Shown here: one piece after another, positions 1-62,502 of the stretch
Numbering within the stretch: the stretch's first letter is position 1
Layout of the letters: each line of letters starts with the position of its first letter
DNA from: Methanomicrobia archaeon
GTDB lineage: Archaea > Halobacteriota > Syntropharchaeia > Alkanophagales > Methanospirareceae
Direction of reading: 5' to 3'
Assembly: GCA_011049045.1 (NCBI GenBank)
Contig: DSCO01000057.1
Location: forward strand, 8,015-72,014
DNA length: 64,000 bases
Program-made: the position numbers and the translations under genes
Notes under the pieces: model-generated
The model's input: the letters and a program-made list of their open reading frames with translations, nothing else
What the model was told of the DNA's origin: nothing
Database searches by the model: none

Positions 1-86
1 CACCTCGTTCTTTCAGTATCTCGGTAATGGTATAGGATACCGGTCCGGGGGTATTTATAGTTTTCTATATTTCGCGGCCGGTACCC

Positions 87-398
87 TCATCCCTTCAGCA
101 CAATCTCTATGTGCACGTCTTTGGGAATAGGTATGCGCATCAGTTGCCGTAGCGCCCGTTCGTCCGCTTCAAGGTCGATCAAGCGCTTATGGATGCGCAT
201 CTCCCAGTGGTCCCAGGTTGGTGAGCCTTCACCGTCCGGGCTCTTCCTGCAGGGCACGACGAGTTTCTTGGTGGGGAGCGGAATGGGCCCGGACATCCGG
301 ACGCCCGTCGTCTCGACTATCCGCTTCACCTGCAGACAGATTTCGTCCAGTTTCTTGTGATCTATGCTCGAGAGCTTTATCCGTGCTTTTTGGTTCAT
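87..398 (-). CDS. rps10: 30S ribosomal protein uS10 (S10)
   Basis: 103 aa; conserved S10 fold sequence (…GPIPLPTKK…); sits immediately downstream of aEF-1alpha as in the archaeal tuf-rps10 operon. Confidence 0.9.
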
Positions 399-462
399 CT
401 TCTTCCCGCTCTATTCCTTCTGATGACGCGCTTTGAGTGACGAGTGCCGTCGGGGGGCTATT

Positions 463-1728: not shown

Positions 1729-1770
1729 CTTTTCTTCCCTCCTTTTCTTCTATCCTATGCTTCCACGAGC

Positions 1771-1782
1771 CTATAAACTTTA
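1771..1782 (-). promoter_or_regulatory. Putative TATA box (AAAGTTTATAGG on minus strand) for tuf
   Basis: TTTATA motif ~45 nt upstream of tuf ATG in divergent intergenic region; sequence only. Confidence 0.3.
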
Positions 1783-1869
1783 GCTCTACATCCTATATAA
1801 TTCTATCACTTTTTAACCTACCCCGGGACGCATCATCCCCTCTCCGGGTGCTCTGACCGCTGCGGTGCC

Positions 1870-2772: not shown

Positions 2773-2860
2773 CCTGCCGTACTGCAGGTGACAGGTACGG
2801 ATCGAACGAACAGTGAAGAGCTACTTATGGATCGGTGCGAAAATAGAAGTGGAACGAACG

Positions 2861-4165
2861 ATGGTGGAAATCATACCTTTCACGGCGACGATCTTGAATC
2901 CCGAGCTGGAGAACAGGACAGAACTGGTATGCCCGGTATACGATACTATTGATGCGCAGCAGTACGAGCGCTACGCGGCGAGGGAGAACAACGTTATTCA
3001 CTTTACCACCCGACGAGACGGTCTTGCAGAAGACGAGTTCATCGCGTCCGCGACGCGGAGCCTGGCGCGTTTTTTCCGTGAAGGGCTCTTAACGGTGCGT
3101 GCACGACCGTCTTTTTACCTCTACGGGGTGCGCTATACCGTTCCCGAGGGCATTGCAGCCCAGCTCCCGGCCGGGAAGCGAACTGAGGTATATGTATGCT
3201 TTGGCCTCGTCGCACTCGTGAAGGTGGGGCAGCGCAACGAGCCTGCGATCGTGGGACACGAGCGCACGTTTGAGGCGAAGACGCAGGAACGCGTCCATCT
3301 GATGCGGGCCTGCGGTATGAACTTCTCACCGATCGTCGCGGAATACTCGATGCCCGGGCATGAACTCAATCGACTCTTTGAGACCTATCTCGGCGTTCTC
3401 AGGCCGGATCTGAAGTTACGCGAGCAGCGGAAGCCACTGGTGGACGTCGAGGTGAACGGTGCTCACCATCTGCTCTGGGAGATTGCTGATGACTCGCTCA
3501 TCGAGCGGATTCAGGAGCTCATGCGCGACAAGGAACTCATGATCCTCGACGGGCATCATCGCTACACGGCTGCGTGTCAGCTGAGCCAGGATCTGGCGGA
3601 AGGGACGGCGTATACGCTCATGACGCTCGTTGAGGGCGGTGATCGTGCGCTGCTGCTCTTGCCGTGGCATCGCTGCGTGCGAGCATGTCATATGGCTGAG
3701 CTCAGGCAGCGAATAGAAGCGTATTTCGCGGTAGAACCACTGGACCGGGATGCAGGGGAGGCCGCGCTCTATAAGCAACTCCATGAGTCTGGCGGAGGAC
3801 TCGATGTCCGGTTCCTCATGTATGACGGCGACCGTTTTTATCTGTTACGCGCCGATGAGCAGCGCGTGCGGCAGCTGGCGAACGAGCGCGGCGAACGCGT
3901 GGGTCTGGACGTTATCAGCCTGCATGAGTGGCTGATCGGCCCAACGCTGATCGGCAAACCGGAGGATCTCGTGTTTACCGCGAGCCCGCGCGAGGCGGTG
4001 GATAACGTGAATAAGGGCGGCTTCCAGGTTGCTTTTATACTCAAGCCGCTTCAGATCGCTGAGGTGGAATACAAGGCGCACAGTGAGCGTAAACCGTTCC
4101 CGCAAAAGTCCACGCTCTTCCTGCCAAAGGTCGCGGAGGGCGTGGTGATGTGGCGATGGAAATGA
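2861..4165 (+). CDS. DUF1015-family protein
   Basis: N-terminus (M)VEIIPFTATI…VVCPVYDTI and conserved DGHHR motif typical of DUF1015; ORF track starts 16 codons earlier (2813). Confidence 0.65.
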   Translation: MVEIIPFTATILNPELENRTELVCPVYDTIDAQQYERYAARENNVIHFTTRRDGLAEDEFIASATRSLARFFREGLLTVRARPSFYLYGVRYTVPEGIAAQLPAGKRTEVYVCFGLVALVKVGQRNEPAIVGHERTFEAKTQERVHLMRACGMNFSPIVAEYSMPGHELNRLFETYLGVLRPDLKLREQRKPLVDVEVNGAHHLLWEIADDSLIERIQELMRDKELMILDGHHRYTAACQLSQDLAEGTAYTLMTLVEGGDRALLLLPWHRCVRACHMAELRQRIEAYFAVEPLDRDAGEAALYKQLHESGGGLDVRFLMYDGDRFYLLRADEQRVRQLANERGERVGLDVISLHEWLIGPTLIGKPEDLVFTASPREAVDNVNKGGFQVAFILKPLQIAEVEYKAHSERKPFPQKSTLFLPKVAEGVVMWRWK

Positions 4166-8651: not shown

Positions 8652-9479
8652 TTACTCCCGATACTTCCCGATCCGGTACTCAGCCTTGTATGGGTCACTG
8701 ACCGTGTTATTCCTGTAATCGACCGAGAGTGTGATGGCCCAGTAACCATCCCGTCCCTCATCGAGCAGGATATGTATCGAGTTCGTCTTGTGCAGGCCCG
8801 TTGCGACCAAAAAGTTACTATCATACCGGCCCCAGTAGGGGTCGATGATAGCCCAATTCGAGAGTGAGCGCCAATCACCGCCCGTGTAGATCATGCCATA
8901 CGTGTGCACGTCAGACGAGCCCCATGCGATCGTCTTCGGGCCCAGATATTTGTAGGCCAGGCGGCACAGATCACGGGTGTAATGGACACAGACCGCGTCA
9001 TCGTTCTTCGGTGGTTCGAGGCTCGTGTACTGTTTTATCCAGGTCGTCGTACGATTGAGATCCTGCGGGTACACAACTTCGTCGAGGATCATGGTCGCGT
9101 TTTTACGCTTATCGCTCGTGTAATTGGTCATGTTCCAGACCGAGATGTTCACGGTGACCTCGTATTGGTAATTCAGCGGGATGCGGGCGGCGAAATAGTC
9201 GAAGTCCCGTTTATCACAGCGCAGGTCCGCGTTCAAATCCCAGGGGACATATCGGGTATAGCGATCGTTGAAGTGGGATTTCAAGATGAGCAGGTCGATC
9301 TGGTTGATATACCCGTCATTGTTGAAGTCAAGATCAGTGATGGCGATAACCGGCTTCTGCTGCGGCTCATCCTGCGACTGCGGCTGCGCTTCAACGATCC
9401 CGCACCCGCAGATAGCCGCACAGAGGAGGAGCAGGATCGTAATACCTGTCACCTGGTACCGTAAAAGATCACTGCACAT
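8652..9479 (-). CDS. Secreted lipoprotein with dockerin-like Ca-binding repeats and transglutaminase-like cysteine-protease core
   Basis: Signal peptide + Cys-rich lipobox region; DLDFNNDGYINQIDLLILK and DLNADLRCDKRDFDYF dockerin/EF-hand-like repeats; C…H…D triad (AVCVHYTRDLCRLA … DVHTYGMIY … IIDP) matching transglutaminase-like fold. Confidence 0.55.
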   Translation of the reverse strand: MCSDLLRYQVTGITILLLLCAAICGCGIVEAQPQSQDEPQQKPVIAITDLDFNNDGYINQIDLLILKSHFNDRYTRYVPWDLNADLRCDKRDFDYFAARIPLNYQYEVTVNISVWNMTNYTSDKRKNATMILDEVVYPQDLNRTTTWIKQYTSLEPPKNDDAVCVHYTRDLCRLAYKYLGPKTIAWGSSDVHTYGMIYTGGDWRSLSNWAIIDPYWGRYDSNFLVATGLHKTNSIHILLDEGRDGYWAITLSVDYRNNTVSDPYKAEYRIGKYRE

Positions 9480-10426: not shown

Positions 10427-11548
10427 CTATACGGTGGCCCTCGCTGATTTTCTCTTAGCTCTTGCAACTCGTTCGTTGCTCATCTCATAGAGCTCTATGA
10501 TAAATGCCTTGAAGCTCAGTTCTTCCTTAAATAGCGTTGTCCACAACAATTGGAGCATCTGCTCATAAACAAAGTAAAAGAACCTTATTTTCATCTCTTT
10601 TGACTCCGATTTGATACGAGCTTCGTCTTGAACTCTAAATCCCGTCTCAATTCTCCATCGCCCTTTGTACGGAGGAATGATATAGTCCAGATCGATCTCT
10701 TCCTGGTTTGTGGCAAATGCCCAATCGTAAGTCTTGCCGTTTGTGGGATCTATGATCTTCTTCAATAGCGCCAATATGGTCGTGCCACGAATCACCGTTT
10801 AATCTTTTATCAGCTCGAACTCATAATGTATCTTCTTTCGCTCGGTATCCGCCATCTCGGCAAGTTCTGTCTTTACTTTTTCGTTCTTTGGAACGAGGAT
10901 CATGTAGGGATACTCAGTATTTGTGAGAGTAAGCATAAGATCTTTGCTATAAAATCCCCTATCGAAGAGGATGAGTTTGATTGAACTAACCAGGGTTTGA
11001 ACGAGAGAGAGACAAAAACAGACCGCCTTGGCCATATCGTGCCCTAAATGAATGGGTATCGAGATCAAAGGTATCTTTTGAGGGATATCAGAACTCACCA
11101 CTGCTACGGTGAGGAACTTGAACTTTCCCATCACGGCATCTTTTCCAGTCCGCCCTTGAATCCAAAATCCCTGTACTTCTCCATAAAAATCCTCATCGGT
11201 ATAGTCAACTGCAAGAACAACATCCTGCTCATCAAGTTTGAACCTTTGTCCTATGATTTTAACTGTTTTTAGGTATTCTCAGTAGAAATTCGAAGATGGA
11301 ACAGCCTTTATGGCCAGATGAATGGAATCTGCTGTTGATCCCACTGTTTCGAGCTAGGTATTTGCCATTGCGGCTTTCAATAAATCCCGGTTGTACTCGA
11401 AACCAGAAAGATACGGCCCCTTTGGCTTTAGATCGAGACAGTGATTAACGAAGGTATCGAGGGTCGTTATCGTCCGAAATATCCTATCTCGATTTGGCGT
11501 CATACGATCACTAGGTAGACGGTACGACCAAGGTATTCCTTGGGACAA
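10427..11548 (-). mobile_element. Degraded IS4-family (DDE) transposase/IS remnant
   Basis: Three ORF pieces (11548..11354, 11134..10799, 10795..10427); DRGF motif and Y-x2-R-x3-E-x6-K signature (YKGRWRIETGFRVQDEARIK); pieces separated by one frameshift and one in-frame TAA; AT-rich relative to flanks; terminal inverted repeats not resolved. Confidence 0.65.
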
Positions 11549-15336: not shown

Positions 15337-15360
15337 ATGGATGGATGGATGGATGGATGG
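15337..15360. repeat. (ATGG)6 tetranucleotide microsatellite
   Basis: atggatggatggatggatggatgg read directly; overlaps 3' end/trailer of tRNA-Ala. Confidence 0.9.
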
Positions 15361-15430
15361 ACCGGTCGGGATTTGAACCCGAGGCCTCTCACACGCCAAG
15401 CGAGTGATCTTCCACCTGATCTACCGGCCC
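15358..15430 (-). tRNA. tRNA-Ala (anticodon GGC)
   Basis: Hand-folded cloverleaf: acceptor GGGCCGG/CCGGTCC with G3:U70 Ala identity pair, D-stem GATC, anticodon loop TTGGCGT, T-arm TCGGG-TTCAAAT-CCCGA, discriminator A; CCA not encoded. Confidence 0.85.
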
Positions 15431-16240: not shown

Positions 16241-16314
16241 TGGGACCGCCGTGATTTGAACACGGGACAACTCGGTCTTCAGCCGAGCGCTCTCCCAGTC
16301 TGAGCTACGGTCCC
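16241..16314 (-). tRNA. tRNA-Phe (anticodon GAA)
   Basis: Hand-folded: acceptor GGGACCG/CGGTCCC, D-arm GCTC-AGACTGGGA-GAGC, anticodon stem CTCGG/CCGAG loop CTGAAGA, T-arm CCGTG-TTCAAAT-CACGG, discriminator A. Confidence 0.85.
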
Positions 16315-21086: not shown

Positions 21087-21425
21087 TCAGCAGGTCAGAT
21101 GTAACGCCGCGATCGTCCGTTTCTTCTGCGCGATCTGGTTGTAGAGCTTACAGGCCTGCTCGGTTGGCTCGATGAGCAGTTCAATGTCCTTCGATTCAAT
21201 ATAGCGCCGCGTTTGTGCAGGCACTTTCATGACGCCGTATTTGCCCGTGCCGACGATCAGCACCTCCGGCTGCTCTTTCACGATCGCATCCACGTCAGTT
21301 AGCAAGAGCACGTGCCCGTCTTTGCGCCACCACTGGTCTTCGATTCGGTCGGGATAGATGATTACATCGCTCGTGAACGTCGTGCCGTCGATGACGATCC
21401 TCCCGAAGTTATAGGCGTCAATCAT
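21087..21425 (-). CDS. Mth938-domain (DUF498-like) protein
   Basis: MIDAYNFGRIVIDGTTFTSDVIIYPDRI… matches Mth938-like pattern; GGAGG 7 nt upstream of this ATG (the ORF-track upstream start 21461 would overlap frhB-like gene). Confidence 0.6.
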   Translation of the reverse strand: MIDAYNFGRIVIDGTTFTSDVIIYPDRIEDQWWRKDGHVLLLTDVDAIVKEQPEVLIVGTGKYGVMKVPAQTRRYIESKDIELLIEPTEQACKLYNQIAQKKRTIAALHLTC

Positions 21426-21457
21426 TTTCCTGCCTCCACCACCACCTGACGATCGCC

Positions 21458-22897
21458 TCACTCGCGGTTCTGCTCGGCTCTCCTGCGCTTGATCTTCGTG
21501 AGCCGCTCGATCTCTTTGAGCTTTATGTCTTCGGTCACGTCCACGTACCCCTTTGCACGAGCACCCTGGAGCAGTTGCTCGCCACGCTCAGTTCGCGTCA
21601 GCACGGTGGACCATCCGGGCTCCGAGCCGACGGATCCGACGGAGATATCCGCGAGTTCCGCGGTATAATCCGGGCAGGCGAAGCAGCCAGCGTTGGCGAA
21701 GCCTTCGACCGCGTCAAAGGCCACGACGTGCAAGATCCCTGCGCGGTCATAGACGTGGAATTCTTTGCCTTTAATGTCCAGCTTTTTCACCTGCTCGACC
21801 GGGAGCACGTTGTTCTGGATATACGCCAGCAGCTCTTGCGTGAACGTCTCCATACAGAACAACCCAACCAGCAGGTTGATTCGCGCCTTATCGATACGGT
21901 AGGGTTGATCGGCGGTGATAACGCGCCGTATGCCCGCGATCTGGCAGGGGGTGCCGACGAACCCGATGCGGCTGCAGCCGGCGACCGCGGCGTCAACGAC
22001 CCCGATGCCTGAGGGGTAATAGGTGTATTTCGTGCCTGCACCTTGCTTGAGCTCTTGGGAACTCCGCACAACCTTCGCGCTCGGCTCCCAGGCGCGATCC
22101 GCGACGGTAATGGCTGCGCAATCAATGAGCCCTTCATCGAGCGCATAACCGAGCAATGCGGTCACCGCCCCGCCGTCCTGCGCCTGCTGCACGGTCATCT
22201 CATCCGTTGCCCGTACCGCATAGCTCGCTCTGTAGATCCCCAGGAGCTCCTCATCCGCTCGATGCCGCCCGAAGACCCGTTCTTCAACTGCGGTGTACGG
22301 GAACGTGCTCCGTATGTGCTTGTAGAGGTCGTCGAGCTTGATGGTGCCCGTGGGGCAGACGTACGCGCACGCGCCGCACCCGATGCAGACATCAGTGAGC
22401 CCGATCTCCAGCGAATCGTCGAGCGGGCCCTCGATCTGGCGGTTCACGCCGCGATTGATGAAATTGATCGCGCTCACGCCCACACGCTCCTCACAGACAC
22501 GGGTGCAGAGGCCGCAGAGTATGCAGGTATCATCGCCCTGAGGGAAGCGCGGTGTACCGACCTTGTATTCCCGCGCCAGCTCCCGGAGCACCGGCACCCC
22601 AGGGCATCGAGCGAGCAACAACTCAATGAGGAGTTTACGAATCGCGATGATCTCCGGTGTGCCGGTCTCCACGACCAGGCCATCCTCAACCGGATAATTA
22701 CAGGCGGTAACGATCTTGCTGCGCCCGCGTCTGGTTATTTTCACGGAGCAGAGCCGGCACGCGCCAAACGGCTCTACCAGCGGATGATAGCAGAGCGTGG
22801 GGATCGCAATCCCGAGATCGCGCGCAGCTTCCAGTATCGTCCTGCCCGCTGGCACGGTGATCTCCTGGGTATCGATCTCCAAGCGCACCTCGCTCAT
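21458..22897 (-). CDS. Fusion: NuoG/FdhA-N-like [2Fe-2S]+[4Fe-4S] ferredoxin module + FrhB/FdhB-like (F420 hydrogenase/dehydrogenase beta) domain
   Basis: N-term 2Fe-2S (CYHP…GACRLCSV…C) and CIGCGACAYVCP; FrhB N-domain GGAVTALLGYALDEGLIDCAAI and FrhB C-domain cluster motif CFACPDYTAELADISVGSVG; start ATG overlaps nuoF-like stop (ATGA). Confidence 0.8.
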   Translation of the reverse strand: MSEVRLEIDTQEITVPAGRTILEAARDLGIAIPTLCYHPLVEPFGACRLCSVKITRRGRSKIVTACNYPVEDGLVVETGTPEIIAIRKLLIELLLARCPGVPVLRELAREYKVGTPRFPQGDDTCILCGLCTRVCEERVGVSAINFINRGVNRQIEGPLDDSLEIGLTDVCIGCGACAYVCPTGTIKLDDLYKHIRSTFPYTAVEERVFGRHRADEELLGIYRASYAVRATDEMTVQQAQDGGAVTALLGYALDEGLIDCAAITVADRAWEPSAKVVRSSQELKQGAGTKYTYYPSGIGVVDAAVAGCSRIGFVGTPCQIAGIRRVITADQPYRIDKARINLLVGLFCMETFTQELLAYIQNNVLPVEQVKKLDIKGKEFHVYDRAGILHVVAFDAVEGFANAGCFACPDYTAELADISVGSVGSEPGWSTVLTRTERGEQLLQGARAKGYVDVTEDIKLKEIERLTKIKRRRAEQNRE

Positions 22898-24840
22898 TCG
22901 CCCTCGCCCCCCTCTTTCAGCTCGGTCTTCTTTGGCAGCTTTCGCTCGGCCTCGAGCAGCGGTGGCGGGACCGGTTCGCCCGAGATCTTGATTACGGCGC
23001 CGAATTTCGGCGGGCACTGATAGAAACAGGAGCCACATTTCGTGCAGGTCGCCTGGTCGATCACATGGATCACTCTCTTATCGCCATCGATCGCGTTCAC
23101 GGGACAGACCTTGAGGCAGAGCAAGCACGCCCTGCACCTGCTCGGCTCGATATAATAACTGATCAGCCCTTTGCAGACGAGCGCAAGGCAGCGCTTATCC
23201 CTGATGTGCGCTTCATATTCGTCCCTGAAGTACCGGAGCGTGGTCAGTACGGGATTCGCAGCGGTCGTTCCGAGCGCGCACAACGATGCGTCCTTCATCA
23301 CGCCGCTGATCTCTTCCAGCAGCTCGATGTCGCCCTCCGTCCCTTCACCGGCCACGACACGGTTCAGGATCTCGCGGAGGTGCTTCAGCCCCTCGCGACA
23401 GGGCACGCACTTGCCGCAGGATTCGTCGCAGAGGAAGTCTACGAAGTATCGCGCGACGTCGACCATGCAGGTGTCCTCGTCCATGACGATCATGCCGCCG
23501 GAGCCCATCATGGAGCCGAGCTTGGTGAGCTCGTCGAAGTCCACGGGCGTATCGAGATAGTCCTCGGGGATACAGCCGCCGGACGGCCCGCCGGTCTGCA
23601 CGGCCTTGAACGCTTTGTTGCCCGGTATGCCGCCGCCGATCTTGAAGATGATGTCCCGGAGCGAGGTGCCCATAGGGACCTCAACCAGGCCGGTATTGTT
23701 CACCTTCCCGACGAGCGAGAAGATCTTCGTGCCTTTGCTCTCCGCCGTCCCGATCGATGCGAACCAGTCAGCGCCCTTGTTAATGATGAGCGGCACGTTC
23801 GCCCAGGTCTCAACGTTGTTGAGATCGCTGGGTTTGTCCCAGAGCCCGCTCTCGGAGGTGTGCACGTATTTCGGTCGCGGCTCCCCCACTCTCCCCTCGA
23901 TCGCGTTCATCAACGCGCTCGACTCGCCGGAGACGAAGGCGCCCGCGCCTTTGTGAATGGTGACGGTGAAGTCGAAGCCGGAACCGAGGATGTTCTTCCC
24001 GAGGAGCCCCAGCTCCTCCGCCTGCGTGATCGCGATCTTCGCATTGGTCACGGCGAGTGGATATTCCTGGCGGATATACAGGAAGCCCTCGTGCGCGCCG
24101 ATCGCATAAGCGCCGAGGATCAGGCCTTCGAGGATACTGTGCGGATTCCCCTCCATGAGCGCGCGATCCATGAACGCACCGGGGTCACCCTCATCGCAGT
24201 TCACAATCACGTATTTCGGCTCGCCTGCCGCCTTTCGCGTTGATTCCCACTTCACGCCGGTGGGGAATCCGCCGCCGCCGCGCCCGCGCAGTTTCGAGCG
24301 CTTGATCTCCTCGATCACCTGCTCGGGCGTGTACTCGAAGAGCACCGTACTGAGCGCCCGATATCCACCGATGGCGAGGTAATCCTCGATGCGTTTGGGG
24401 TCGATCGTGATATTATCGCCGATGAGTAGCCGTTTCTGGTACTTGTAGAACGGGATCTCAGATTCGTGGACCGCTTTCTCGCCGGTCTCGGGATCGGTAT
24501 AGAGCAATCGCTCGACGACCTTCTTCCCTTTGATCGTTTCGGTAATGATCTCGGGGACGTCTTCAGGCTGCACCTGGAGATAGCAGATCTCTTCGGGATA
24601 GATGACCACGATCGGGCCCCGCTCGCAGAAACCGGGACAACCGGTCTCTCGCAGGTCCACCGTGTCGCCGAGACCCTGCTCACGCAAGCCCTCTTTGAAT
24701 GCGGTGATCACCTTCTTCACACCGAGTGCGAGGCAGCCTGTGCCCGCGCAGATAGCGATACGGGGCTTCTCAGGGTCTCGTTGCGCCTGTATCTCGTTCC
24801 TCAGGCCCTCCAATTCCGCAGGGGATTTCAATCGTGCCAT
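22894..24840 (-). CDS. NuoF/HydB-like NAD(P)H-binding FMN flavoprotein with N-terminal thioredoxin-like [2Fe-2S] and C-terminal 2x[4Fe-4S]
   Basis: 648 aa; RGRGGGGFPTGVKW, VNCDEGDPGAFMDR, CGKCVPCREG, C-terminal CTKCGSCFYQCP. Confidence 0.9.
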   Translation of the reverse strand: MARLKSPAELEGLRNEIQAQRDPEKPRIAICAGTGCLALGVKKVITAFKEGLREQGLGDTVDLRETGCPGFCERGPIVVIYPEEICYLQVQPEDVPEIITETIKGKKVVERLLYTDPETGEKAVHESEIPFYKYQKRLLIGDNITIDPKRIEDYLAIGGYRALSTVLFEYTPEQVIEEIKRSKLRGRGGGGFPTGVKWESTRKAAGEPKYVIVNCDEGDPGAFMDRALMEGNPHSILEGLILGAYAIGAHEGFLYIRQEYPLAVTNAKIAITQAEELGLLGKNILGSGFDFTVTIHKGAGAFVSGESSALMNAIEGRVGEPRPKYVHTSESGLWDKPSDLNNVETWANVPLIINKGADWFASIGTAESKGTKIFSLVGKVNNTGLVEVPMGTSLRDIIFKIGGGIPGNKAFKAVQTGGPSGGCIPEDYLDTPVDFDELTKLGSMMGSGGMIVMDEDTCMVDVARYFVDFLCDESCGKCVPCREGLKHLREILNRVVAGEGTEGDIELLEEISGVMKDASLCALGTTAANPVLTTLRYFRDEYEAHIRDKRCLALVCKGLISYYIEPSRCRACLLCLKVCPVNAIDGDKRVIHVIDQATCTKCGSCFYQCPPKFGAVIKISGEPVPPPLLEAERKLPKKTELKEGGEGE

Positions 24841-24855
24841 AACAAATGCTCCACT

Positions 24856-25311
24856 CTATTCGTAGCGTGACAGGATACCTTGCACATCACCGGGATTCAA
24901 CTTACCATGGTAATCCTCATCAACCACCATCACCGGCCCGAGCGCGCAACAGCCGATGCAATTCACCCGCTTGACCGTGAACTTCATGTCCGCGGTCGTC
25001 CCGTCCGCTTTCACGCCGAGCATATCCTCGACCTTCTCCAGGATCCGCGGGCCGCCGCGCACATGACAGGCCGTGCCCAGACAGACCTGGATCACGTGCC
25101 GGCCGATCGGCTCCAGGCTCAGCACCTTATAGAAACTAACAACGCGATAAATGCGAGTCAACGGGATCTTAAGCCGGGTGCTTATACGCTCCATTGCTTC
25201 TCGGGGTATCCAGTTGAGCTCATTCTGGAGCTCCAGAAGCAGTTGAATTAAAACACCCTCTTTTCCTTCATAACGATCAATAATCGCATCGATCCGCTCT
25301 TCAGCTACCAT
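24856..25311 (-). CDS. NuoE/HoxE/HydC-like [2Fe-2S] subunit
   Basis: ~151 aa; CLGTACHVRGG … CIGCCALGPV; GAGGTG SD 7 nt upstream of ATG at 25311. Confidence 0.85.
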   Translation of the reverse strand: MVAEERIDAIIDRYEGKEGVLIQLLLELQNELNWIPREAMERISTRLKIPLTRIYRVVSFYKVLSLEPIGRHVIQVCLGTACHVRGGPRILEKVEDMLGVKADGTTADMKFTVKRVNCIGCCALGPVMVVDEDYHGKLNPGDVQGILSRYE

Positions 25312-25631
25312 CTCGCGCACCTCTCGACCTCTGTCCCACACGGACCGTTGTGGCCGAAGCAGCCTTTACATTCCCTAATCGAGCGCGAGCAAATAAATAG
25401 CACTTGCTTCTTCCGACGCTACGCGCCCCGGTCGTTGGCGATTCGCTCTCGTTGCTGCACGAATCCAGCGCAGAACCTCTACCTCTCGCGATCATATTTG
25501 TTACCGTTCATTACCCTGAGACGCCTTTGAGAACGGGGAAATGCACGGAACGAGCTGATTGAACCAGGCAATTCGTGCGCATCTCGAGCCCAAAGAGCAT
25601 CTGCGGCGCCCACGAGGTGCGGCCTTCAATC

Positions 25632-26021
25632 CTAAACCAGATGCGGGCAGAACCGATCAGACCGCATCCTCCCACCGATACCTTCTTCCATCTGCTGCTT
25701 CAGCAGCTGCCGGAATTCAGGCTTCTCCAGCAGGGTCATGAAGATTATCGCAGCGGATCCCTCCTCATCGGTCCTGTTAATCCCATCGAGCATCAAAAGC
25801 TGTCGTTTCGCATATTCGAGCCTGTACTTCCTAAGCTCGAGCCCACGATGGAGATAATGGTTGATCGCCTGCGAGCGTCTATCCCAGAGCCCCTCTTCCA
25901 CCTCTTTATCGATCTCCTGCATCAGCTGCGAACGTATCGAGATTGAAAACGTCTCCTTACCGCCGCCCCTTTTCCTTCTTCGCGCGTCGCTTCCGCGCTG
26001 CTCCGCCTCGCCTTCTTCCAT
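25632..26021 (-). CDS. Ribbon-helix-helix (CopG/NikR-N-like) transcriptional regulator
   Basis: 129 aa; ETFSISIRSQLMQEIDKEVEEGLWDRRSQAINHYLHRGL fits RHH β-α-α; lies upstream of nuoE-like operon. Confidence 0.45.
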   Translation of the reverse strand: MEEGEAEQRGSDARRRKRGGGKETFSISIRSQLMQEIDKEVEEGLWDRRSQAINHYLHRGLELRKYRLEYAKRQLLMLDGINRTDEEGSAAIIFMTLLEKPEFRQLLKQQMEEGIGGRMRSDRFCPHLV

Positions 26022-27094: not shown

Positions 27095-27448
27095 TTATTC
27101 CAGTCCAACCCAAATGCTGCCCTCATCCACGCGCGTCGGGTAAACCGTCAGGGCCTTTTTCCGCGAGAGGATACTCAGGACCTTGCCCGCAACGGGTGGC
27201 CACGGGCTCCATTCCTTAACATCTCCGGTGCGTATGTCAAAGGCGCTGTGGTGCCAGGGACAGATAATTGCTCCATCGGGGCTGATTCTGCCTTTGACCA
27301 GCCGGCCGCCCATGTGCGGGCATTTGCTGTTCATGGCGTACACTTCGCCCTCGTGGTGGAGGAGCAGGATCGACTTGCCCTCCACTTCGACCACCTTACG
27401 GTCGCCCTCAGGTAATTCCTGCTCTGAAAGAACACGTATCCAGTTCAT
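27095..27448 (-). CDS. Rieske [2Fe-2S] domain protein
   Basis: 117 aa; CPHMGGRL … CPWHHSAF. Confidence 0.8.
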   Translation of the reverse strand: MNWIRVLSEQELPEGDRKVVEVEGKSILLLHHEGEVYAMNSKCPHMGGRLVKGRISPDGAIICPWHHSAFDIRTGDVKEWSPWPPVAGKVLSILSRKKALTVYPTRVDEGSIWVGLE

Positions 27449-27481
27449 ATCTTCCCTCCATTATTTATGCCACCCAGCGGG

Positions 27482-27781
27482 TTAATCTAATGCCGCAAGA
27501 GCATGAGCTGCGGTATAAACGCTCCCAACGCCACAGACGTACTGGGTAACTCTCAACACTTCTGTGATCTCTTCATTGGTAGCGCCGGCTTGCATAGCGG
27601 CCTGAGCTAATGCTTTTACCCCTTCGGTAGCTCCGTTTGATGCGTCCAAAGCCAGAGCGATAAGGAGCTTAAACTTTGTAGGGAGAGCACCGTCAGCAAG
27701 CGCGAACTCACGTGTTTCGGCAACGAGCGCGAGCAGCTCGGGATCACGTTTCTCAAATATCTTCAAGGGATTTTCAGCCAT
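27482..27781 (-). CDS. Carboxymuconolactone decarboxylase (AhpD-like) family protein
   Basis: 99 aa; CMD-domain pattern incl. conserved Cys near C-terminus. Confidence 0.7.
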   Translation of the reverse strand: MAENPLKIFEKRDPELLALVAETREFALADGALPTKFKLLIALALDASNGATEGVKALAQAAMQAGATNEEITEVLRVTQYVCGVGSVYTAAHALAALD

Positions 27782-28206
27782 CTCTTACCACCTCCTGTAA
27801 TAGTGGTTAGAAATTGTTATAGAAAAACGATTAGCTTACACCCTCTCTCCGCCCCTTCGCCAGTCCAGCATCCTCGCTATGCAGCCCCTTTCCGTGCCGA
27901 GTGCAACAGCCATTGCGTTCGCGTAGACAAAGAACAGCGCCCCTCTTCACCTCCCGAAAGGCTCACTAGCCGCCACCTGCAGAGTCACCGGTACCCCTTG
28001 GGGACTGAAGCTGAAGCTTTACGTGTTCAATCAGCATTAGCTATTGCGGAATCAGAGGCGGTGCTGAGGAACGATGGCGTTGCAAGTATTCCAAAACTCA
28101 CCGGGATGATCTATGCACTGATCGCGTTTCCCATCTTACTTTACCTGCTCTATAGTAACAACTACACCAAAAAATCGGCTATCTGTTCTTAATCCTCTCG
28201 ATACTC

Positions 28207-28776
28207 ATGGGCTTTTTAGTGTTTGTACCCTTGTTTCTCTATCAATTTCAGATGCTTATTACCGGAAATACCAACCAACATGGTGGACCACTGCCAATAG
28301 TTATCCTGAGTCTGATACTCTTCTTCATCCTCACGCTGGTATTCGGCAGAATATTTCTTGGCTTTATCTGCCCTATTGGAACGCTTCAGGAGCCGGCTTA
28401 TCAACTTCCAACCAAAAAACCGAAGATAGTCAACAAAACTCTGGCGGTTGTTCTTCATCTACTCTTCATCCTTTTTTCTCGTCTCGTGCCCCTCGGCGTG
28501 CTCTTCTCTATAGGAATCCTTACGTTTCTTGGCGTGCGTGATTTCTTTTATCTCGCTGCAGGGTCGGTATTCTTCTTTGTATTTCTTGCTTTCGTGCTGC
28601 TCTCCATCGTTCTGTACCGACCTTTCTGCCGCTTCTTCTGCCCGTACGGGCTGCTGCTTCCGCTGGTAGCCTTCACGAGCGTCTGTAAAGTAAACTACGG
28701 CGAACCTCCCGTTGCACGATGTGTGGCAAATGCGAGGACGTTCGCTCTACCAAGAAGGCGGGCAAAACGGAGTTAA
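28207..28776 (+). CDS. Polytopic NapH/MauN-type 'polyferredoxin' membrane protein (TM part)
   Basis: 189 aa, ≥4 TM; FICPIGTLQE and CRFFCPYGLL motifs; ferredoxin tail is in a different frame (see next feature). Confidence 0.65.
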   Translation: MGFLVFVPLFLYQFQMLITGNTNQHGGPLPIVILSLILFFILTLVFGRIFLGFICPIGTLQEPAYQLPTKKPKIVNKTLAVVLHLLFILFSRLVPLGVLFSIGILTFLGVRDFFYLAAGSVFFFVFLAFVLLSIVLYRPFCRFFCPYGLLLPLVAFTSVCKVNYGEPPVARCVANARTFALPRRRAKRS

Positions 28777-28872
28777 CGCGAAAATGTTATCTTTGTAATT
28801 GCTGCAGATATGTTTGTTCTGCCGATGCACTTGCCATGGACGAACGTGGAAAAATAGGGGGAATAGAAAAAC
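28713..28872 (+). other. Out-of-frame 2x[4Fe-4S] ferredoxin-like tail (CTMCGKCEDV … CYLCNCCRYVCSAD) probably belonging to the preceding membrane protein via frameshift
   Basis: Frame-0 translation after stop at 28686 gives two CxxCxxC(xxxC) motifs; NapH-family proteins normally carry these C-terminally. Confidence 0.4.
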
Positions 28873-28875
28873 GAA

Positions 28876-29223
28876 ATGGATCATGATAACGAGCAGATGG
28901 ACACGGAAAAGCTTCTCGCGCGCGCGATCCGAGTAGCTGACCTGGTGGATTACCAGGAGGGCGCGGTGGTGAGCCGAACGCTCATTGACAAGAAGACCGG
29001 GACGGTCACCTTGTTCGCCTTCGCGGAGGGACAAGGATTGAGCGAGCATACCGCACCATTTGATGCCCTGGTTCAGATCATCGATGGCGAAGCGAAGATC
29101 GTCATCTCGGGCACATCGCTCCGGGTACAGAAAGGCGAGCTGGTGATCATGCCGGCGAATGAGCCCCATGCGCTAAAAGCCGTAAAGCCATTCAAGATGC
29201 TGCTGACCATGATACGGTCGTGA
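28876..29223 (+). CDS. Cupin-domain protein (intact paralogue)
   Basis: 115 aa; cupin barrel motifs; paralogue of pseudogene at 9779..10106. Confidence 0.75.
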   Translation: MDHDNEQMDTEKLLARAIRVADLVDYQEGAVVSRTLIDKKTGTVTLFAFAEGQGLSEHTAPFDALVQIIDGEAKIVISGTSLRVQKGELVIMPANEPHALKAVKPFKMLLTMIRS

Positions 29224-29357
29224 TATGCGCGCGCGGATGCGGCAGCAGCTCAGTCTGCACCGTTTTTGCGGTTTGTCCTGCGCACAGAGGGGGACACAAG
29301 CAGTTATTCAATTTAAGGACGCGTGCCCTAAGAAATCATCAGCCATGAGGCGGCAAC

Positions 29358-30152
29358 ATGAAGAAAGTAAAACGAAAAATAATCAGGATTGATGAGGATT
29401 TATGTGACGGCTGCGGAATTTGTATTCCCTCGTGCGCCGAACAGGCAATCCAGCTTGTTGATACTCCTGCAGGTAAGAAAGCGAGGTTGGTGAAAGAGTT
29501 TTACTGTGATGGGCTGGGTGCGTGTCTTGGTTCCTGTCCCACAGGGGCACTAACCGTTGAAGAACGAGAGGCGGAACCTTACGATGAAGCGGCAACACTC
29601 GCTCGAATTAGAAGAACAGCTCCTGAGCTGCTCGAAGAGCAGGTGAAACATCCTGAGGAACATGCACAGGAATTCTCCGAACAGCACGCACAGAAACTGC
29701 CGGGAGGTGTATCTTCATGTCCTTCCGTCCAGATGCTTCGGTGGGCAGGTAAGGGGGAGGACGTAGCTCAAGAATCCGTGAAATCCCACTCGGCGTTACG
29801 GCATTGGCCTATACAACTGCACTTAGTCCACCCATCCGCGCCTTATTATCGGGATGCGGACCTGGTTATAGCTGCGGATTGCGTTCCTTTTGCCTACGCC
29901 AAGTTCCATGAGGATTTTCTGAAGGGTAAGGTGCTCGCTATTGGCTGTCCGAAACTTGACGATATTGACGCTTATAGAGTAAAACTTAAGCAACTGATCG
30001 AAACAGCACATCCCAGGAGTATAACAATCGTACACATGGAAGTCCCCTGCTGTTCTGGTTTTGTAAACCTTGTTCGGCAAGCACTGCGAGAATCCCGGAT
30101 GAATGTTCCGCTTGAAGAAATAGTAATACGTATAACGGGCGAAAAGATGTAA
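29358..30152 (+). CDS. 4Fe-4S dicluster-domain protein with uncharacterised C-terminal domain
   Basis: 264 aa; CDGCGICIPSC…CDGLGACLGSCP; C-terminal Cys-containing domain (CPKLDD…VPCCSG) of unknown function. Confidence 0.65.
   Translation: MKKVKRKIIRIDEDLCDGCGICIPSCAEQAIQLVDTPAGKKARLVKEFYCDGLGACLGSCPTGALTVEEREAEPYDEAATLARIRRTAPELLEEQVKHPEEHAQEFSEQHAQKLPGGVSSCPSVQMLRWAGKGEDVAQESVKSHSALRHWPIQLHLVHPSAPYYRDADLVIAADCVPFAYAKFHEDFLKGKVLAIGCPKLDDIDAYRVKLKQLIETAHPRSITIVHMEVPCCSGFVNLVRQALRESRMNVPLEEIVIRITGEKM

Positions 30153-60600: not shown

Positions 60601-62502
<1,902 letters not shown>

What the first reader, a model, noticed from the sequence alone, without database searches (positions are those of the whole stretch)
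21087..26021. Operon for a Nuo-type (HydB/HydC-like) NAD(P)H module coupled to an Fe-S/FrhB fusion: candidate undescribed multi-subunit FrhB/F420 oxidoreductase
Four genes on the minus strand are translationally coupled by ATGA overlaps.

- NuoE-like gene (25311..24856).
- NuoF-like gene (24840..22894). It carries both an N-terminal Trx-like [2Fe-2S] domain and a C-terminal 2x[4Fe-4S] ferredoxin domain, the architecture of bifurcating HydB-type subunits rather than respiratory NuoF.
- A fusion gene (22897..21458). Its N-terminal part is a NuoG/FdhA-type 2Fe-2S + 4Fe-4S module. The normal molybdopterin/hydrogenase catalytic domain is replaced by a complete FrhB domain; both FrhB signatures are present, GGAVTALLGYALDEGLID and CFACPDYTAELADISVGS.
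- An Mth938-domain gene (21425..21087).

A ribbon-helix-helix regulator sits just upstream.

NAD(P)H:F420 exchange is normally done by the small single-subunit Fno. A three-subunit diaphorase-FrhB complex of Bfu type is not a standard described enzyme, to my knowledge. It could be a non-bifurcating NADH:F420 oxidoreductase, or a ferredoxin-coupled (con)furcating variant.
Basis: partly seen in the sequence, partly recalled or inferred. Interest (0 to 1): 0.72.

Follow-up and report, generated by a model that had tools for sequence, protein, structure and literature searches.

The report
Predicted F420-linked electron-bifurcating enzyme operon
An uncultured relative of methane-oxidising archaea carries a three-gene operon for a predicted enzyme that would exchange electrons between coenzyme F420, NAD(P) and ferredoxin; this enzyme type was predicted from genomes in 2022 but never purified, and this copy has a different F420-binding module from the ones noted before.

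Summary
Three details fail:
- Only one of the three gene junctions is an ATGA overlap.
- The "ribbon-helix-helix regulator" has no family support.
- The DUF498/Mth938 gene and that upstream ORF are not conserved with the cassette.

The conserved unit is three genes, BfuC (NuoE-like), BfuB (HydB-like NuoF) and BfuA. BfuA is a WorA-like 2Fe-2S plus 2x[4Fe-4S] module fused to an FrhB flavoprotein. All 24 archaeal loci with enough flank keep this order (Methanothrix, ANME-1, Bathyarchaeia, uncultured Halobacteriota).

BfuB carries every sequence signature reported for bifurcating Bfu enzymes.

The arrangement is not undescribed. Schut et al. 2022 named it "F420-Bfu" (3 members, uncharacterised). 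Chadwick et al. 2022 listed it as "FrhB8 / NuoF-Trx / Trx". I found no biochemical study.

What is new: BfuB, BfuC and the BfuA N-module are 52-74% identical to the ANME-1, Methanothrix and Bathyarchaeia cassettes, but the FrhB module is only about 33% identical. Its nearest relative outside its own clade is a stand-alone FrhB encoded beside pyruvate:ferredoxin oxidoreductase genes. That points to a domain replacement or a second fusion.

Most likely function: reversible F420H2 : NAD(P)+ / ferredoxin bifurcation or confurcation. This is inferred, not shown.

The parts
24856..25311 (-). BfuC (NuoE/HydC-like), 151 aa. Predicted to bind one [2Fe-2S] cluster (C1) through Cys77, Cys82, Cys118 and Cys122.
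   Evidence: Pfam PF01257 covers the full length, E 2e-49. Best solved relatives are subunits of bifurcating enzymes: 7t2r_C (6e-47), 8a6t_C and 9mqx_C. The NCBIfam NuoE score of 136.5 is below the cut-off of 141.
22894..24840 (-). BfuB (HydB-like NuoF), 648 aa. Predicted cofactor sites: N-terminal [2Fe-2S] (Cys31, 36, 68, 72); FMN/NAD(P)H site; [4Fe-4S] B1 (Cys475, 478, 481, 521); B2/Zn site (Cys458, His545, Cys551, Cys556); C-terminal 2x[4Fe-4S] B3 and B4 (Cys569-579 and Cys599-609).
   Evidence: Pfam. Aligns over its full length with 7t2r_B (2e-239), 9mqx_B, 8a6t_B, 9n5u_B and 7p5h_B, whereas respiratory NuoF covers only aa 150-550. The motifs GDPGAFMDR, GAGAFVSGE and TGGPSGG and all the Cys/His ligands are conserved, and they match the bifurcating pattern.
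22328..22897 (-). BfuA N-module (aa 1 to about 190). Predicted A1 [2Fe-2S] (Cys36, 47, 50, 66) plus two [4Fe-4S] clusters, A2 and A4 (Cys125/128/131/135 and Cys171/174/177/181). The His-ligated cluster A3 is absent. The start codon overlaps the BfuB stop as ATGA.
   Evidence: Pfam Fer2_4 plus Fer4 dicluster. Aligns with WorA 9mqx_A, aa 5-190, E 1e-37, and at 42% identity by Foldseek. WorA also lacks A3 (PMC12318220). The Cys residues are invariant in 78 sequences.
21461..22309 (-). BfuA linker plus FrhB module (aa about 197-479). Predicted FAD site and one [4Fe-4S] cluster (Cys318, 348, 405, 408); presumed F420 site.
   Evidence: Pfam FrhB_FdhB_N and FrhB_FdhB_C. Sequence matches: 3zfs_C FrhB 1e-51, 8riu_B 7e-48, Fsr 7np8. 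The AF2 model superposes on FrhB chains at 1.9-2.2 A rmsd over about 270 columns, TM 0.84-0.87. The nearest relative outside its own clade is the Por-linked stand-alone protein P0250, at 52% identity.
21087..21425 (-). DUF498/Mth938-domain gene, 112 aa. It lies 32 nt downstream and is probably co-transcribed here, but it is not part of the conserved cassette.
   Evidence: Pfam PF04430, E 6e-26. A GGAGG-like sequence lies in the 32-nt spacer. The gene is absent beside the cassette in all other loci.
25632..26021 (-). Unverified and not conserved.
   Evidence: No Pfam or NCBIfam hit. Found only on this organism's own contigs L001 and L002.
25391..25400 (-). TATA-like CTATTTATTT about 85 nt upstream of the BfuC start. 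Possibly the archaeal promoter of the operon (inference only).
   Evidence: Read directly from the sequence. No test was possible with the tools.

Best explanation
The three genes most likely encode a soluble BfuABC-type flavin/iron-sulfur complex, the 'F420-Bfu' type.

**Proposed electron path**
- Coenzyme F420(H2) reacts at the FAD of the FrhB module at the C-terminus of BfuA.
- Electrons then pass one at a time through the FrhB [4Fe-4S], the BfuA clusters A4, A2 and A1, and BfuB cluster B1.
- They reach the FMN of BfuB.
- FMN together with B1 and the mobile BfuC [2Fe-2S] (the 'flavobicluster') splits them. A hydride goes to NAD(P)+. Low-potential electrons leave through B3/B4 to ferredoxin.

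**Net reaction**
- 2 F420H2 + NAD(P)+ + 2 Fd(ox) <-> 2 F420 + NAD(P)H + 2 Fd(red).
- The F420 couple lies between NAD and ferredoxin, so the reaction should run near equilibrium.
- In vivo it may run mainly in the confurcating direction, making F420H2 from reduced ferredoxin plus NAD(P)H.

**What is shown and what is inferred**
- Shown here: the gene cassette, the domain and ligand inventory, the bifurcation-type signature residues, the conserved gene order, and the fold of the fusion.
- Inferred: F420 as the substrate, ferredoxin coupling, NAD versus NADP, the direction, and the actual electron path.

**What is particular to this copy**
- The BfuBC core and the BfuA N-module are orthologous to the cassettes in ANME-1, Methanothrix and Bathyarchaeia.
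- The FrhB module is a different paralog, closest to Por-associated stand-alone FrhB proteins.
- This implies a module swap or a second, independent fusion.
For: **Bfu core**
- BfuB and BfuC are closest to subunits of structurally and biochemically proven bifurcating enzymes (NiFe-HydABCSL, WorABCSL, HydABC, NfnABC). BfuB aligns over its full length and BfuC nearly so.
- BfuB has A222-x-M224, F302 and GGPSG(417-421), plus the extra N- and C-terminal Fe-S domains. This is the pattern Losey 2020, Schut 2022 and Xiao 2025 report for bifurcating but not non-bifurcating homologues.
- GGPSG, the Ala and Met of the A-x-M motif, and Phe302 are kept in all 24 archaeal BfuB examined. The middle residue of A-x-M is Phe in 14 and Tyr in 10.
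- The four universal B2-site ligands are present.

**F420 module**
- Its best solved relatives are all F420 enzymes: FrhB, the F420-reducing CODH and Fwd subunits shown to reduce F420 (PMC11493965), and Fsr.
- HCAR, a family member that is not an F420 enzyme (my own knowledge), matches at only 19-20% identity.

**Wire**
- All 16 Fe-S cysteines of BfuA are invariant in 78 homologues.
- The 2x[4Fe-4S] domain followed by FrhB is the same order as in 8riu_B.

**Unit**
- BfuC-BfuB-BfuA order holds in 24 of 24 archaeal loci with enough flank.

**Host**
- EF-1alpha is closest to Methanophagales/ANME-1, at 82-87% identity. ANME archaea are expected to use F420 (PMC9012536).

**Prior prediction and energetics**
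- Schut 2022 made the same prediction and tabulated the potentials.

**Module swap**
- Per-module identities.
- FrhB-only search: P0250 at 52% identity lies in a PorD-PorA-PorB cluster.
- None of the 149 best representatives outside the window's own clade has the BfuA N-module.
- NJ bootstraps: own clade plus P0250 96/100; own clade plus the FrhB8-type clade 0/100.
Against: - No F420-Bfu of any kind has been purified or assayed.
- The signature residues are correlations drawn from a few characterised enzymes.
- The FrhB family includes members that are not F420 enzymes (HCAR), and no F420-contact residues were tested here.
- The window holds no F420 biosynthesis or methanogenesis genes, so F420 in this organism rests on taxonomy inferred from one marker.
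- The Glu said to exclude NADPH in T. sibiricus NfnB is Ser307 here. The same is true of the NAD-using WorB, so NAD versus NADP is open.
- The AF2 model has pTM 0.63 and a disordered loop at aa 142-170. The full-chain fit to 8riu_B is poor (rmsd 8.8 A). The geometry between domains, and hence cluster-to-cluster distances, is therefore not established.
- The trees are neighbour-joining only, and deep nodes in the FrhB family are star-like.
Confidence: 0.6

Rival explanations
1. The complex is a non-bifurcating NAD(P)H:F420 oxidoreductase. It would be a simple diaphorase wire from FMN to the FrhB FAD, doing the job of Fno with three subunits, and ferredoxin would play no part.
For: NAD(P) and F420 have nearly the same standard potential, so no energetic coupling is needed for this exchange. 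Trimeric HydABC-like enzymes that do not bifurcate exist, for example S. wolfei Hyd1ABC.
Against: BfuB shows the bifurcating pattern, not the non-bifurcating one, at all diagnostic positions: A/M rather than T,S/K,S,A; F rather than Y; and GGPSG present. It also keeps the B3/B4 ferredoxin-like domain that forms part of the ferredoxin docking site in NfnABC. Keeping about 250 extra residues and three or four extra clusters across four archaeal lineages would be hard to explain for a plain wire.
Confidence: 0.17
2. The FrhB-like module does not use free F420 as its third substrate. It might serve as an internal flavin/Fe-S adaptor that docks onto another enzyme, for example a 2-oxoacid oxidoreductase as its nearest relative does, or it might use another deazaflavin or flavin-like acceptor.
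For: The closest stand-alone relative, P0250, is encoded directly after PorD-PorA-PorB. The FrhB family includes members such as HCAR that are not F420 enzymes (my own knowledge). The cassette has no conserved neighbours that would fix its metabolic context.
Against: No partner genes are conserved next to the cassette in 24 loci. The FrhB modules attached to CODH and Fwd in Ca. Ethanoperedens, which have the same architecture, were shown to reduce F420 (PMC11493965). Identity to bona fide FrhB is 36-42%, against 19-20% to HCAR.
Confidence: 0.12
3. The genes are a respiratory complex I input module (NuoEFG-like or FpoF-like). It would dock on a membrane Fpo/Nuo-like complex to feed in NADH or F420H2 electrons.
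For: One public record annotates a Methanothrix homologue as 'F420H2 dehydrogenase subunit F'. The subunits are homologous to NuoE, NuoF and NuoG.
Against: No membrane-arm genes lie beside the window's cassette or the two nearest relatives whose neighbours carry Pfam annotation. All NCBIfam scores fall below the NuoE, NuoF, NuoG, FpoF and HoxU cut-offs. BfuB and BfuC are far closer to soluble Bfu enzymes than to complex I subunits.
Confidence: 0.04

Closest known systems
F420-Bfu (Schut et al. 2022, PMC9304861), which is the same as the 'FrhB8 / NuoF-Trx / Trx' clusters of ANME (Chadwick et al. 2022, PMC9012536). Predicted, never characterised.
   Same: The same three-gene cassette and order. 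The same BfuA architecture: a 2Fe-2S plus 2x[4Fe-4S] N-module fused to FrhB. BfuB is 67-74% identical, BfuC 52-62% and the BfuA N-module 55-65%. Clade-specific BfuB residues are shared: NCDEG, His296 and FVSGES.
   Different: The FrhB module is only 30-34% identical and does not group with the FrhB8-type module (0 of 100 bootstraps). The window's clade also has an insertion of about 14 residues between the two [4Fe-4S] motifs and lacks the C-terminal 'IxxGL' tail.
NfnABC (Nfn-Bfu), from S. ovata, C. saccharolyticus and T. sibiricus. Characterised, with cryo-EM structures (PMC12018979, PMC11829005).
   Same: A Type 1 Bfu, in which a flavin-containing domain of BfuA handles a two-electron hydride carrier of about -320 to -380 mV. 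The BfuBC core and signature motifs are the same. It is the best functional analogue: replace NADPH with F420H2.
   Different: NfnA uses a glutamate-synthase-like FAD domain and more clusters (A3, A6, A7). Here the module is FrhB, A3 is missing, and the substrate is presumably F420.
WorABCSL of Acetomicrobium mobile (PDB 9MQX; PMC12318220).
   Same: The BfuA N-module is of the WorA kind: A1, A2 and A4 present, no A3 (E 1e-37; 42% identity by Foldseek). WorB is the second-best solved match to BfuB and shares the GESSAL motif.
   Different: WorA ends in a zinc finger and a helix that recruits separate tungsten subunits (Type 2). Here the catalytic flavoprotein is fused on directly (Type 1).
F420-reducing CODH and formylmethanofuran dehydrogenase subunits of Ca. 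Ethanoperedens (PDB 8RIU_B, 8RJA_E; PMC11493965), and the Por-linked 'FrhB6' paralogs.
   Same: A 2x[4Fe-4S] domain, a conserved linker (TF-P...E-R-FG...ELLG-Y) and an FrhB domain. 8riu_B is the top Foldseek hit. The Por-linked protein P0250 is the nearest sequence relative of the window's FrhB module, at 52% identity.
   Different: Those proteins are stand-alone subunits docked on CO2-forming enzymes. Here the module is fused to a Bfu N-module and sits in a NAD(P)H/ferredoxin core.
Fno (F420H2:NADP+ oxidoreductase).
   Same: It links the F420 and nicotinamide pools.
   Different: It is unrelated in sequence: a single small subunit with no flavin, no Fe-S clusters and no ferredoxin coupling (established knowledge). 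No Fno-like domain was found in these genes.
FrhABG F420-reducing [NiFe] hydrogenase.
   Same: The FrhB fold, the FAD and the [4Fe-4S] ligands. Rmsd is about 1.9 A, and identity is 36-40% by Foldseek and 42% to M. marburgensis FrhB in the trimmed alignment.
   Different: No FrhA or FrhG genes were seen in the ORFs scanned. The TIGR03289 score of 207 is below the cut-off of 331.5.

Membership tests
Bfu (BfuABC/HydABC-type electron-bifurcating) family | BfuB carries an N-terminal thioredoxin-like [2Fe-2S] domain and a C-terminal 2x[4Fe-4S] ferredoxin-like domain flanking the NuoF core. | tested here: met
   Pfam domains at aa 24-101 and 562-612. Cys31/36/68/72 and both CxxCxxCxxxC motifs are conserved in all 24 archaeal homologues. 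Full-length alignment to 7t2r_B, 9mqx_B and 8a6t_B.
Bfu (BfuABC/HydABC-type electron-bifurcating) family | The signature residues of bifurcating enzymes at the NADH/FMN site: Ala-x-Met, Phe instead of Tyr, and the GGPSG loop (Losey 2020; Schut 2022; Xiao 2025). | tested here: met
   The window has GDPGAFMDR, GAGAFVSGE and TGGPSGG. GGPSG is kept in 24 of 24 archaeal BfuB.
Bfu (BfuABC/HydABC-type electron-bifurcating) family | The B1 [4Fe-4S] ligands and the universally conserved B2-site ligands (3 Cys plus 1 His). | tested here: met
   Cys475/478/481/521 and Cys458/His545/Cys551/Cys556 are 100% conserved in the alignment. The definition is from Schut 2022, Suppl. Fig. 9.
Bfu (BfuABC/HydABC-type electron-bifurcating) family | A separate BfuC subunit with one [2Fe-2S] cluster. 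| tested here: met
   PF01257 at 2e-49. The CX4C...CX3C pattern is present. Best solved matches are HydC, WorC and NfnC.
Bfu (BfuABC/HydABC-type electron-bifurcating) family | A BfuA N-terminal domain with A1 [2Fe-2S] and the Y-shaped set of [4Fe-4S] clusters. | tested here: met
   A1, A2 and A4 ligands are present and invariant. A3 (His-Cys3) is absent, as in the characterised WorA.
Bfu (BfuABC/HydABC-type electron-bifurcating) family | Ferredoxin-coupled bifurcating or confurcating catalysis. | not testable with these tools
   This needs an enzyme assay. No F420-Bfu has been assayed.
F420-Bfu as described (Methanothrix type / ANME 'FrhB8') | BfuA carries an FrhB domain in place of the H-cluster or pterin domain, within a BfuC-BfuB-BfuA cassette. 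| tested here: met
   Pfam. Gene order in 24 of 24 loci.
F420-Bfu as described (Methanothrix type / ANME 'FrhB8') | The FrhB module is orthologous to that of the described members. | tested here: not met
   30-34% identity, against 67-74% for BfuB. No FrhB8-type fusion is among the best 150 representatives. Joint monophyly in 0 of 100 NJ bootstraps, against 96 of 100 with Por-linked P0250.
F420-Bfu as described (Methanothrix type / ANME 'FrhB8') | F420 is the third substrate. | not testable with these tools
   Only similarity to proven F420 enzymes is available. No cof genes lie in the window.
Respiratory complex I N-module (NuoE/NuoF/NuoG) | Scores above the curated family cut-offs, a NuoG with the His-ligated cluster and a molybdopterin-like domain, and membrane-arm genes alongside. 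| tested here: not met
   NCBIfam scores: NuoE 136.5<141, NuoF 468.6<558.65, NuoG 90.4<470. No NADH-G_4Fe-4S_3 hit. No nuo or fpo membrane genes nearby.
FrhB of F420-reducing hydrogenase / FpoF | Scores above the curated cut-offs, and partner genes FrhA and FrhG, or Fpo membrane subunits. | tested here: not met
   TIGR03289 207<331.5, PRK09325 236.2<269, FpoF 157.9<475. No partner genes were seen in the ORFs scanned.
Ribbon-helix-helix regulators (the upstream 129-aa ORF) | A match to an RHH/CopG/Arc family profile. | tested here: not met
   No Pfam hit at E<=5 and no NCBIfam hit. Not conserved beside the cassette.

The most novel reading that the evidence does not exclude
Archaea related to ANME-1 may have attached F420-reductase (FrhB) modules to the same electron-bifurcating BfuBC core at least twice, by swapping in different paralogs. 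If so, FrhB modules would be interchangeable 'plugs', already seen on CODH, Fwd, Por, Hdr and Fpo, that wire any Fe-S chain to the F420 pool.

Under this reading the window's version, with a Por-type FrhB module, would be a working F420H2:NAD(P)+/ferredoxin bifurcase. It would act as the central hub balancing the three soluble redox pools in this lineage. It could also be the missing route to F420H2 in hydrogenase-free archaea such as Methanothrix during direct interspecies electron transfer (DIET) and Bathyarchaeia that use the Wood-Ljungdahl pathway.
Probability: 0.3. Interest if true: 0.65.

Novelty: new variant of a known kind. Interest (0 to 1): 0.45.

Why it matters
F420, NAD(P) and ferredoxin are the three soluble electron currencies of methanogens, methanotrophic archaea and many Bathyarchaeia.

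How hydrogenase-free members make F420H2 is repeatedly stated as unresolved. Examples are Bathyarchaeia (PMC7886697) and Methanothrix during direct interspecies electron transfer (PMC12072023).

A reversible F420-Bfu would be an F420 counterpart of the Nfn transhydrogenase and a direct candidate for that role. This window adds three things:
1. The cassette is much more widespread than the 3 members (Schut 2022) or the 'almost exclusively ANME' distribution (Chadwick 2022) reported. It occurs in Methanotrichaceae, Methanophagales, Bathyarchaeia and further uncultured Halobacteriota.
2. A second version exists with a non-orthologous FrhB module. This is evidence that the catalytic module of a bifurcating enzyme can be exchanged.
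3. It supplies concrete sequences for expression.

It does not overturn anything. The enzyme class was already predicted, and the function remains untested.

Tried and rejected
1. **DUF498/Mth938 as a fourth subunit or assembly factor.** The idea was attractive because, from my own recollection, the complex I assembly factor NDUFAF3 belongs to this domain family. I rejected it as part of the unit: the gene is absent beside the cassette in 24 other loci and in the two nearest relatives with annotated contexts.

2. **The upstream ORF as a ribbon-helix-helix regulator.** It has no profile support.

3. **F420 biosynthesis or methanogenesis genes in the window.**

4. **A clade-specific Cys215/His296/Cys471 trio in BfuB as a possible new metal site.**
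   - It is strictly conserved in all 24 F420-Bfu BfuB and rare elsewhere.
   - However, the Cys, His and FVSGES features also occur in the Chloroflexi 'Mbh-Bfu' in Schut's alignment. They are therefore a subclade trait and not specific to F420.
   - Whether the three residues lie close together in space could not be measured, because the tools return no coordinates.

5. **Mapping Chadwick's FrhB8 locus tags onto my loci through their supplement.** The text search returned trees and tables but not the needed row. I rely instead on their column headings and on finding the cassette in genomes they used: AG-394-G06 = L008, CONS3730B06UFb1 = L014, GoMg2 = P0064.

6. **Whether M. harundinacea 'FrhB Mhar_2358', highly expressed during DIET, is the BfuA fusion.** This could not be checked.

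7. **Literature searches combining FrhB, NuoF, NuoE and F420.** The first two returned nothing. Looser searches found the relevant papers.

8. **A Biopython bootstrap on all 102 sequences.** It timed out. I repeated it with 48 taxa and Kimura distances.

9. **The sigma-70 promoter/terminator scanner.** I did not use it because the host is an archaeon.

Full report
**1. Observation**

They coincide with the public gene calls on the source contig: 151, 648, 479 and 112 aa, on ENA ERZ27245514 k141_395303, 85.7 kb.

Pfam confirms the domain content:
- BfuC: a NuoE-type thioredoxin-like [2Fe-2S] protein.
- BfuB: a NuoF core (Complex1_51K, SLBB, NADH_4Fe-4S), preceded by a second thioredoxin-like [2Fe-2S] domain and followed by a 2x[4Fe-4S] domain.
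- BfuA: Fer2_4, then a 2x[4Fe-4S] domain, then FrhB_FdhB_N and FrhB_FdhB_C.
- The fourth gene: DUF498.

Three details of the observation fail.
- Only the BfuB/BfuA junction is an ATGA overlap. The other two junctions are 15-nt and 32-nt spacers with GGAG-like sequences.
- The fusion's N-module lacks the His-ligated [4Fe-4S] site of NuoG, HydA and FdhA.
- The 129-aa upstream ORF has no Pfam or NCBIfam match at all.

**2. The conserved unit**

A search with the fusion protein found the same architecture over its full length in essentially all of the 120 best hits listed.

A scan of one genome per prokaryotic species returned loci from four groups:
- uncultured Halobacteriota;
- Methanothrix and Methanotrichaceae;
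- ANME-1 (Methanophagales);
- Bathyarchaeia.

In all 24 archaeal loci with enough upstream sequence the order is BfuC-BfuB-BfuA. DUF498 and the upstream ORF occur only on this organism's own contigs. The two nearest relatives with annotated contexts have unrelated neighbours. The unit is therefore three genes. DUF498 is probably co-transcribed here, but it is a lineage-specific neighbour.

In bacteria the same BfuC-BfuB pair is followed by BfuA proteins with other C-terminal parts. Their lengths are about 590-650 aa, about 1090 aa, or about 210-260 aa. This is the general pattern of the Bfu family.

**3. What kind of NAD(P)H module it is**

BfuB aligns from about residue 20 to about residue 618 with the B subunits of structurally characterised bifurcating enzymes:

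| Solved chain | Enzyme | E-value |
|---|---|---|
| 7t2r_B | NiFe-HydABCSL | 2e-239 |
| 9mqx_B | WorABCSL | 5e-228 |
| 8a6t_B | HydABC | 9e-224 |
| 9n5u_B | NfnABC | 6.5e-195 |
| 7p5h_B | HydABC | 1.3e-189 |

Respiratory NuoF matches only the core (aa 150-550), at about 1e-102 to 1e-111. BfuC behaves the same way.

Published criteria separate bifurcating from non-bifurcating homologues (Losey 2020; Schut 2022 Suppl. Fig. 10; Xiao 2025). They are Ala-x-Met at the NADH site, Phe rather than Tyr at the FMN site, the GGPSG loop, and the extra Fe-S domains. All are met in the window.
- In all 24 archaeal homologues, GGPSG, the Ala and Met of the A-x-M motif, and Phe302 are kept. The middle residue of A-x-M is Phe in 14 and Tyr in 10.
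- The four universally conserved B2-site ligands are present as Cys458, His545, Cys551 and Cys556.
- No subunit reaches the curated NCBIfam cut-off of NuoE, NuoF, NuoG, HoxE, HoxU, FrhB or FpoF. NCBIfam release 20.0 has no model that any of the three subunits reaches.

**4. The fusion protein**

*N-module.* Residues 5-190 align with WorA of the tungsten aldehyde oxidoreductase Bfu complex (9mqx_A, E 1e-37; 42% identity by Foldseek). WorA binds A1, A2 and A4 and lacks A3 (PMC12318220). The window protein has exactly the corresponding ligands:
- Cys36/47/50/66;
- Cys125/128/131/135;
- Cys171/174/177/181.

[quoted passage not shown] They also align with the F420-reductase subunit of the Ca. Ethanoperedens CODH (8riu_B, 7e-48) and with Fsr. 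The CODH and Fwd complexes holding those subunits were shown experimentally to reduce F420 (PMC11493965).

*Model.* An AlphaFold2 model built on 78 homologues has pLDDT 84.7 and pTM 0.63.
- Its FrhB part superposes on FrhB chains at 1.9-2.2 A rmsd, TM 0.84-0.87.
- The best overall hit is 8riu_B.
- HCAR, which is not an F420 enzyme (my own knowledge), matches at only 19-20% identity.
- The loop at aa 142-170 is disordered, and the relative domain orientation is uncertain. I therefore make no claim about distances between clusters.

All sixteen Fe-S cysteines are invariant across the 78 sequences.

**5. Mechanism (inference)**

This follows the NfnABC and WorABCSL structures.
1. F420H2 would deliver a hydride to the FAD of the FrhB module.
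2. Single electrons would pass through the FrhB [4Fe-4S], then A4, A2, A1 and B1, to FMN.
3. The FMN/B1/C1 'flavobicluster' would send a hydride to NAD(P)+.
4. Low-potential electrons would go through the mobile BfuC cluster and B3/B4 to ferredoxin.

The potentials tabulated by Schut et al. are F420 -340 to -360 mV, NAD -320 mV (about -280 mV in vivo), and ferredoxin -420 mV (about -500 mV in vivo). These put F420 between the two acceptors, so the reaction should be reversible. Schut et al. proposed the confurcating direction in Methanothrix, with NADH plus reduced ferredoxin giving F420H2.

NAD versus NADP is open. The Glu that Xiao et al. credit with excluding NADPH is the second Glu of GEE. 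It is Ser307 here (GESSAL), as it is in the NAD-using WorB.

**6. Comparison with the literature**

The arrangement is not undescribed.
- Schut et al. 2022 named it F420-Bfu: Type 1, BfuB clade 45, 3 members, Methanosaetaceae, 'not characterised'.
- Chadwick et al. [quoted passage not shown]
- 'F420-Bfu' occurs in no other paper of the searched library.
- Recent papers on Methanothrix electron uptake do not consider it.

The distribution I find is wider than either paper reported. It includes Bathyarchaeia and uncultured Halobacteriota.

**7. What is different in this copy**

Identity of the window's proteins to the ANME-1, Methanothrix and Bathyarchaeia cassettes, by module:

| Module | Identity |
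|---|---|
| BfuB | 67-74% |
| BfuC | 52-62% |
| BfuA N-module | 55-65% |
| FrhB module | 33-38% pairwise; mean 32.6%, maximum 34.4% in the trimmed alignment |

The FrhB figure is lower than the module's identity to 82 other FrhB-family proteins (mean 36.1%), including M. marburgensis FrhB at 41.9%.

I searched 1.84 billion cluster representatives with the FrhB module alone.
- The window's own clade came first (P0017, 64% identity).
- Next was P0250 (52% identity, 295 bits), a 372-aa stand-alone 2x[4Fe-4S]+FrhB protein.
- P0250 is encoded directly after PorD, PorA and PorB. That is the setting Chadwick et al. call FrhB6.
- None of the other 149 best representatives carries the BfuA N-module.

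Other support:
- In neighbour-joining bootstraps, own clade plus P0250 is recovered 96 of 100 times. The FrhB8-type clade is recovered 100 of 100 times. The two together are never recovered.
- The window's module scores 180 bits against FrhB 3zfs_C. The ANME-1 module scores 107 bits.
- In the BfuB tree, the window groups next to ANME-1. This agrees with EF-1alpha, whose best named hits are Methanophagales at 82-87%.

The simplest reading is that the BfuBC core and N-module were inherited within this lineage. The FrhB module was then either replaced by a Por-type paralog or fused independently. The junction lies just after the last Cys-Pro of the A4 motif.

Caveats: the trees are distance trees, deep FrhB-family nodes are star-like, and a very fast-evolving orthologue is not formally excluded.

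**8. Host and surroundings**

NCBI labels the record 'Methanomicrobia archaeon'. EF-1alpha points to a relative of ANME-1.

The window contains no F420-biosynthesis, methanogenesis or hydrogenase genes among the ORFs scanned. F420 use is therefore inferred from taxonomy and from the module's relatives.

**9. Verdict**

This is a real, well-conserved operon for a Bfu-type complex with an FrhB module.

The enzyme class was predicted in 2022 and is still uncharacterised. This window holds a previously unremarked variant with a non-orthologous F420-reductase module.

Interest is moderate, at 0.45. It is a good expression target, and it bears on an open question about where F420H2 comes from. It is not surprising to a specialist who knows the Bfu literature.

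Noticed in passing
window 47940-53197: A remnant of a head-tailed virus, partly in a low-GC stretch (GC 0.42 at 48-50 kb). It holds an HNH endonuclease (47940-48479), a head maturation protease (49621-50736, phrog_530, 2e-29) and a terminase large subunit (51773-53197, phrog_38, 1e-68). No capsid, portal or integrase was identified.
   Followed up: partly
window 10427-11134 (GC 0.46 across 10-12 kb): Two short ORFs in a low-GC island. One contains a 'YKGRWRIETGF' stretch that resembles the DDE transposase Y-x-x-R-W-x-I-E motif (my own recollection). It looks like a fragment of an insertion sequence. Neither ORF has a PHROGs hit, and 10427-10795 also has no Pfam hit.
   Followed up: partly
BfuB, window 22894-24840: residues Cys215, His296, Ser304, Cys471: Cys215, His296 and Cys471 are strictly conserved in all 24 archaeal F420-Bfu BfuB proteins and rare in 37 bacterial BfuB (5-16%). 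The usual Cys of the 'FVCGE' motif is Ser. The Cys, His and FVSGES features also appear in 'Dm Mbh-Bfu' in Schut 2022 Suppl. Fig. 10. Whether the residues form a site near FMN is unknown.
   Followed up: partly
L028, L030, L032, L033 (Dehalococcoidia loci): The BfuB proteins of these bacteria nest inside the archaeal F420-Bfu clade in the NJ tree. Their BfuA N-modules are 53-59% identical to the window's. Their BfuA C-terminal parts (about 300 aa plus a terminal Fer4 domain) have no Pfam family and no FrhB domain. This is an uncharacterised Bfu type.
   Followed up: partly
L085 (GCA_016928455.1, JAFGKP010000129.1) 18-3634: A PorD-PorA-PorB-FrhB gene cluster. This is a candidate F420-linked pyruvate oxidoreductase (the 'FrhB6' type of Chadwick et al.). 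Its FrhB is the nearest relative of the window's FrhB module.
   Followed up: partly
window 8652-9479: A 275-aa protein with a type I dockerin domain (E 9e-9) and an N-terminal hydrophobic segment. Dockerin and cohesin proteins were noted as unusually abundant in ANME-1 and ANME-2a by Chadwick et al..
   Followed up: no
window 27095-30152: A group of small redox genes upstream of the operon, on mixed strands: a Rieske protein (27095-27448), a CMD-family protein (27482-27781), a Fer4_5 membrane protein (28207-28776), a cupin (28876-29223) and an AF_0155-like 4Fe-4S protein (29358-30152). They are not conserved with the cassette.
   Followed up: no
window 60601-62502, 56777-58523, 15358-15430 and 16241-16314: An AMP-forming acetyl-CoA synthetase (633 aa). 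From sequence resemblance only, a likely cysteine desulfurase and NifU/IscU-like pair (not run against any family library). Also tRNA-Ala(GGC) and tRNA-Phe(GAA).
   Followed up: no
L084 5999-7246: In one of the nearest relatives of the cassette (P0011, GCA_016930255.1), a glutamate dehydrogenase gene lies divergently just upstream of BfuC. This is a weak hint of a link to NAD(P)H-dependent nitrogen assimilation, seen in one locus only.
   Followed up: no
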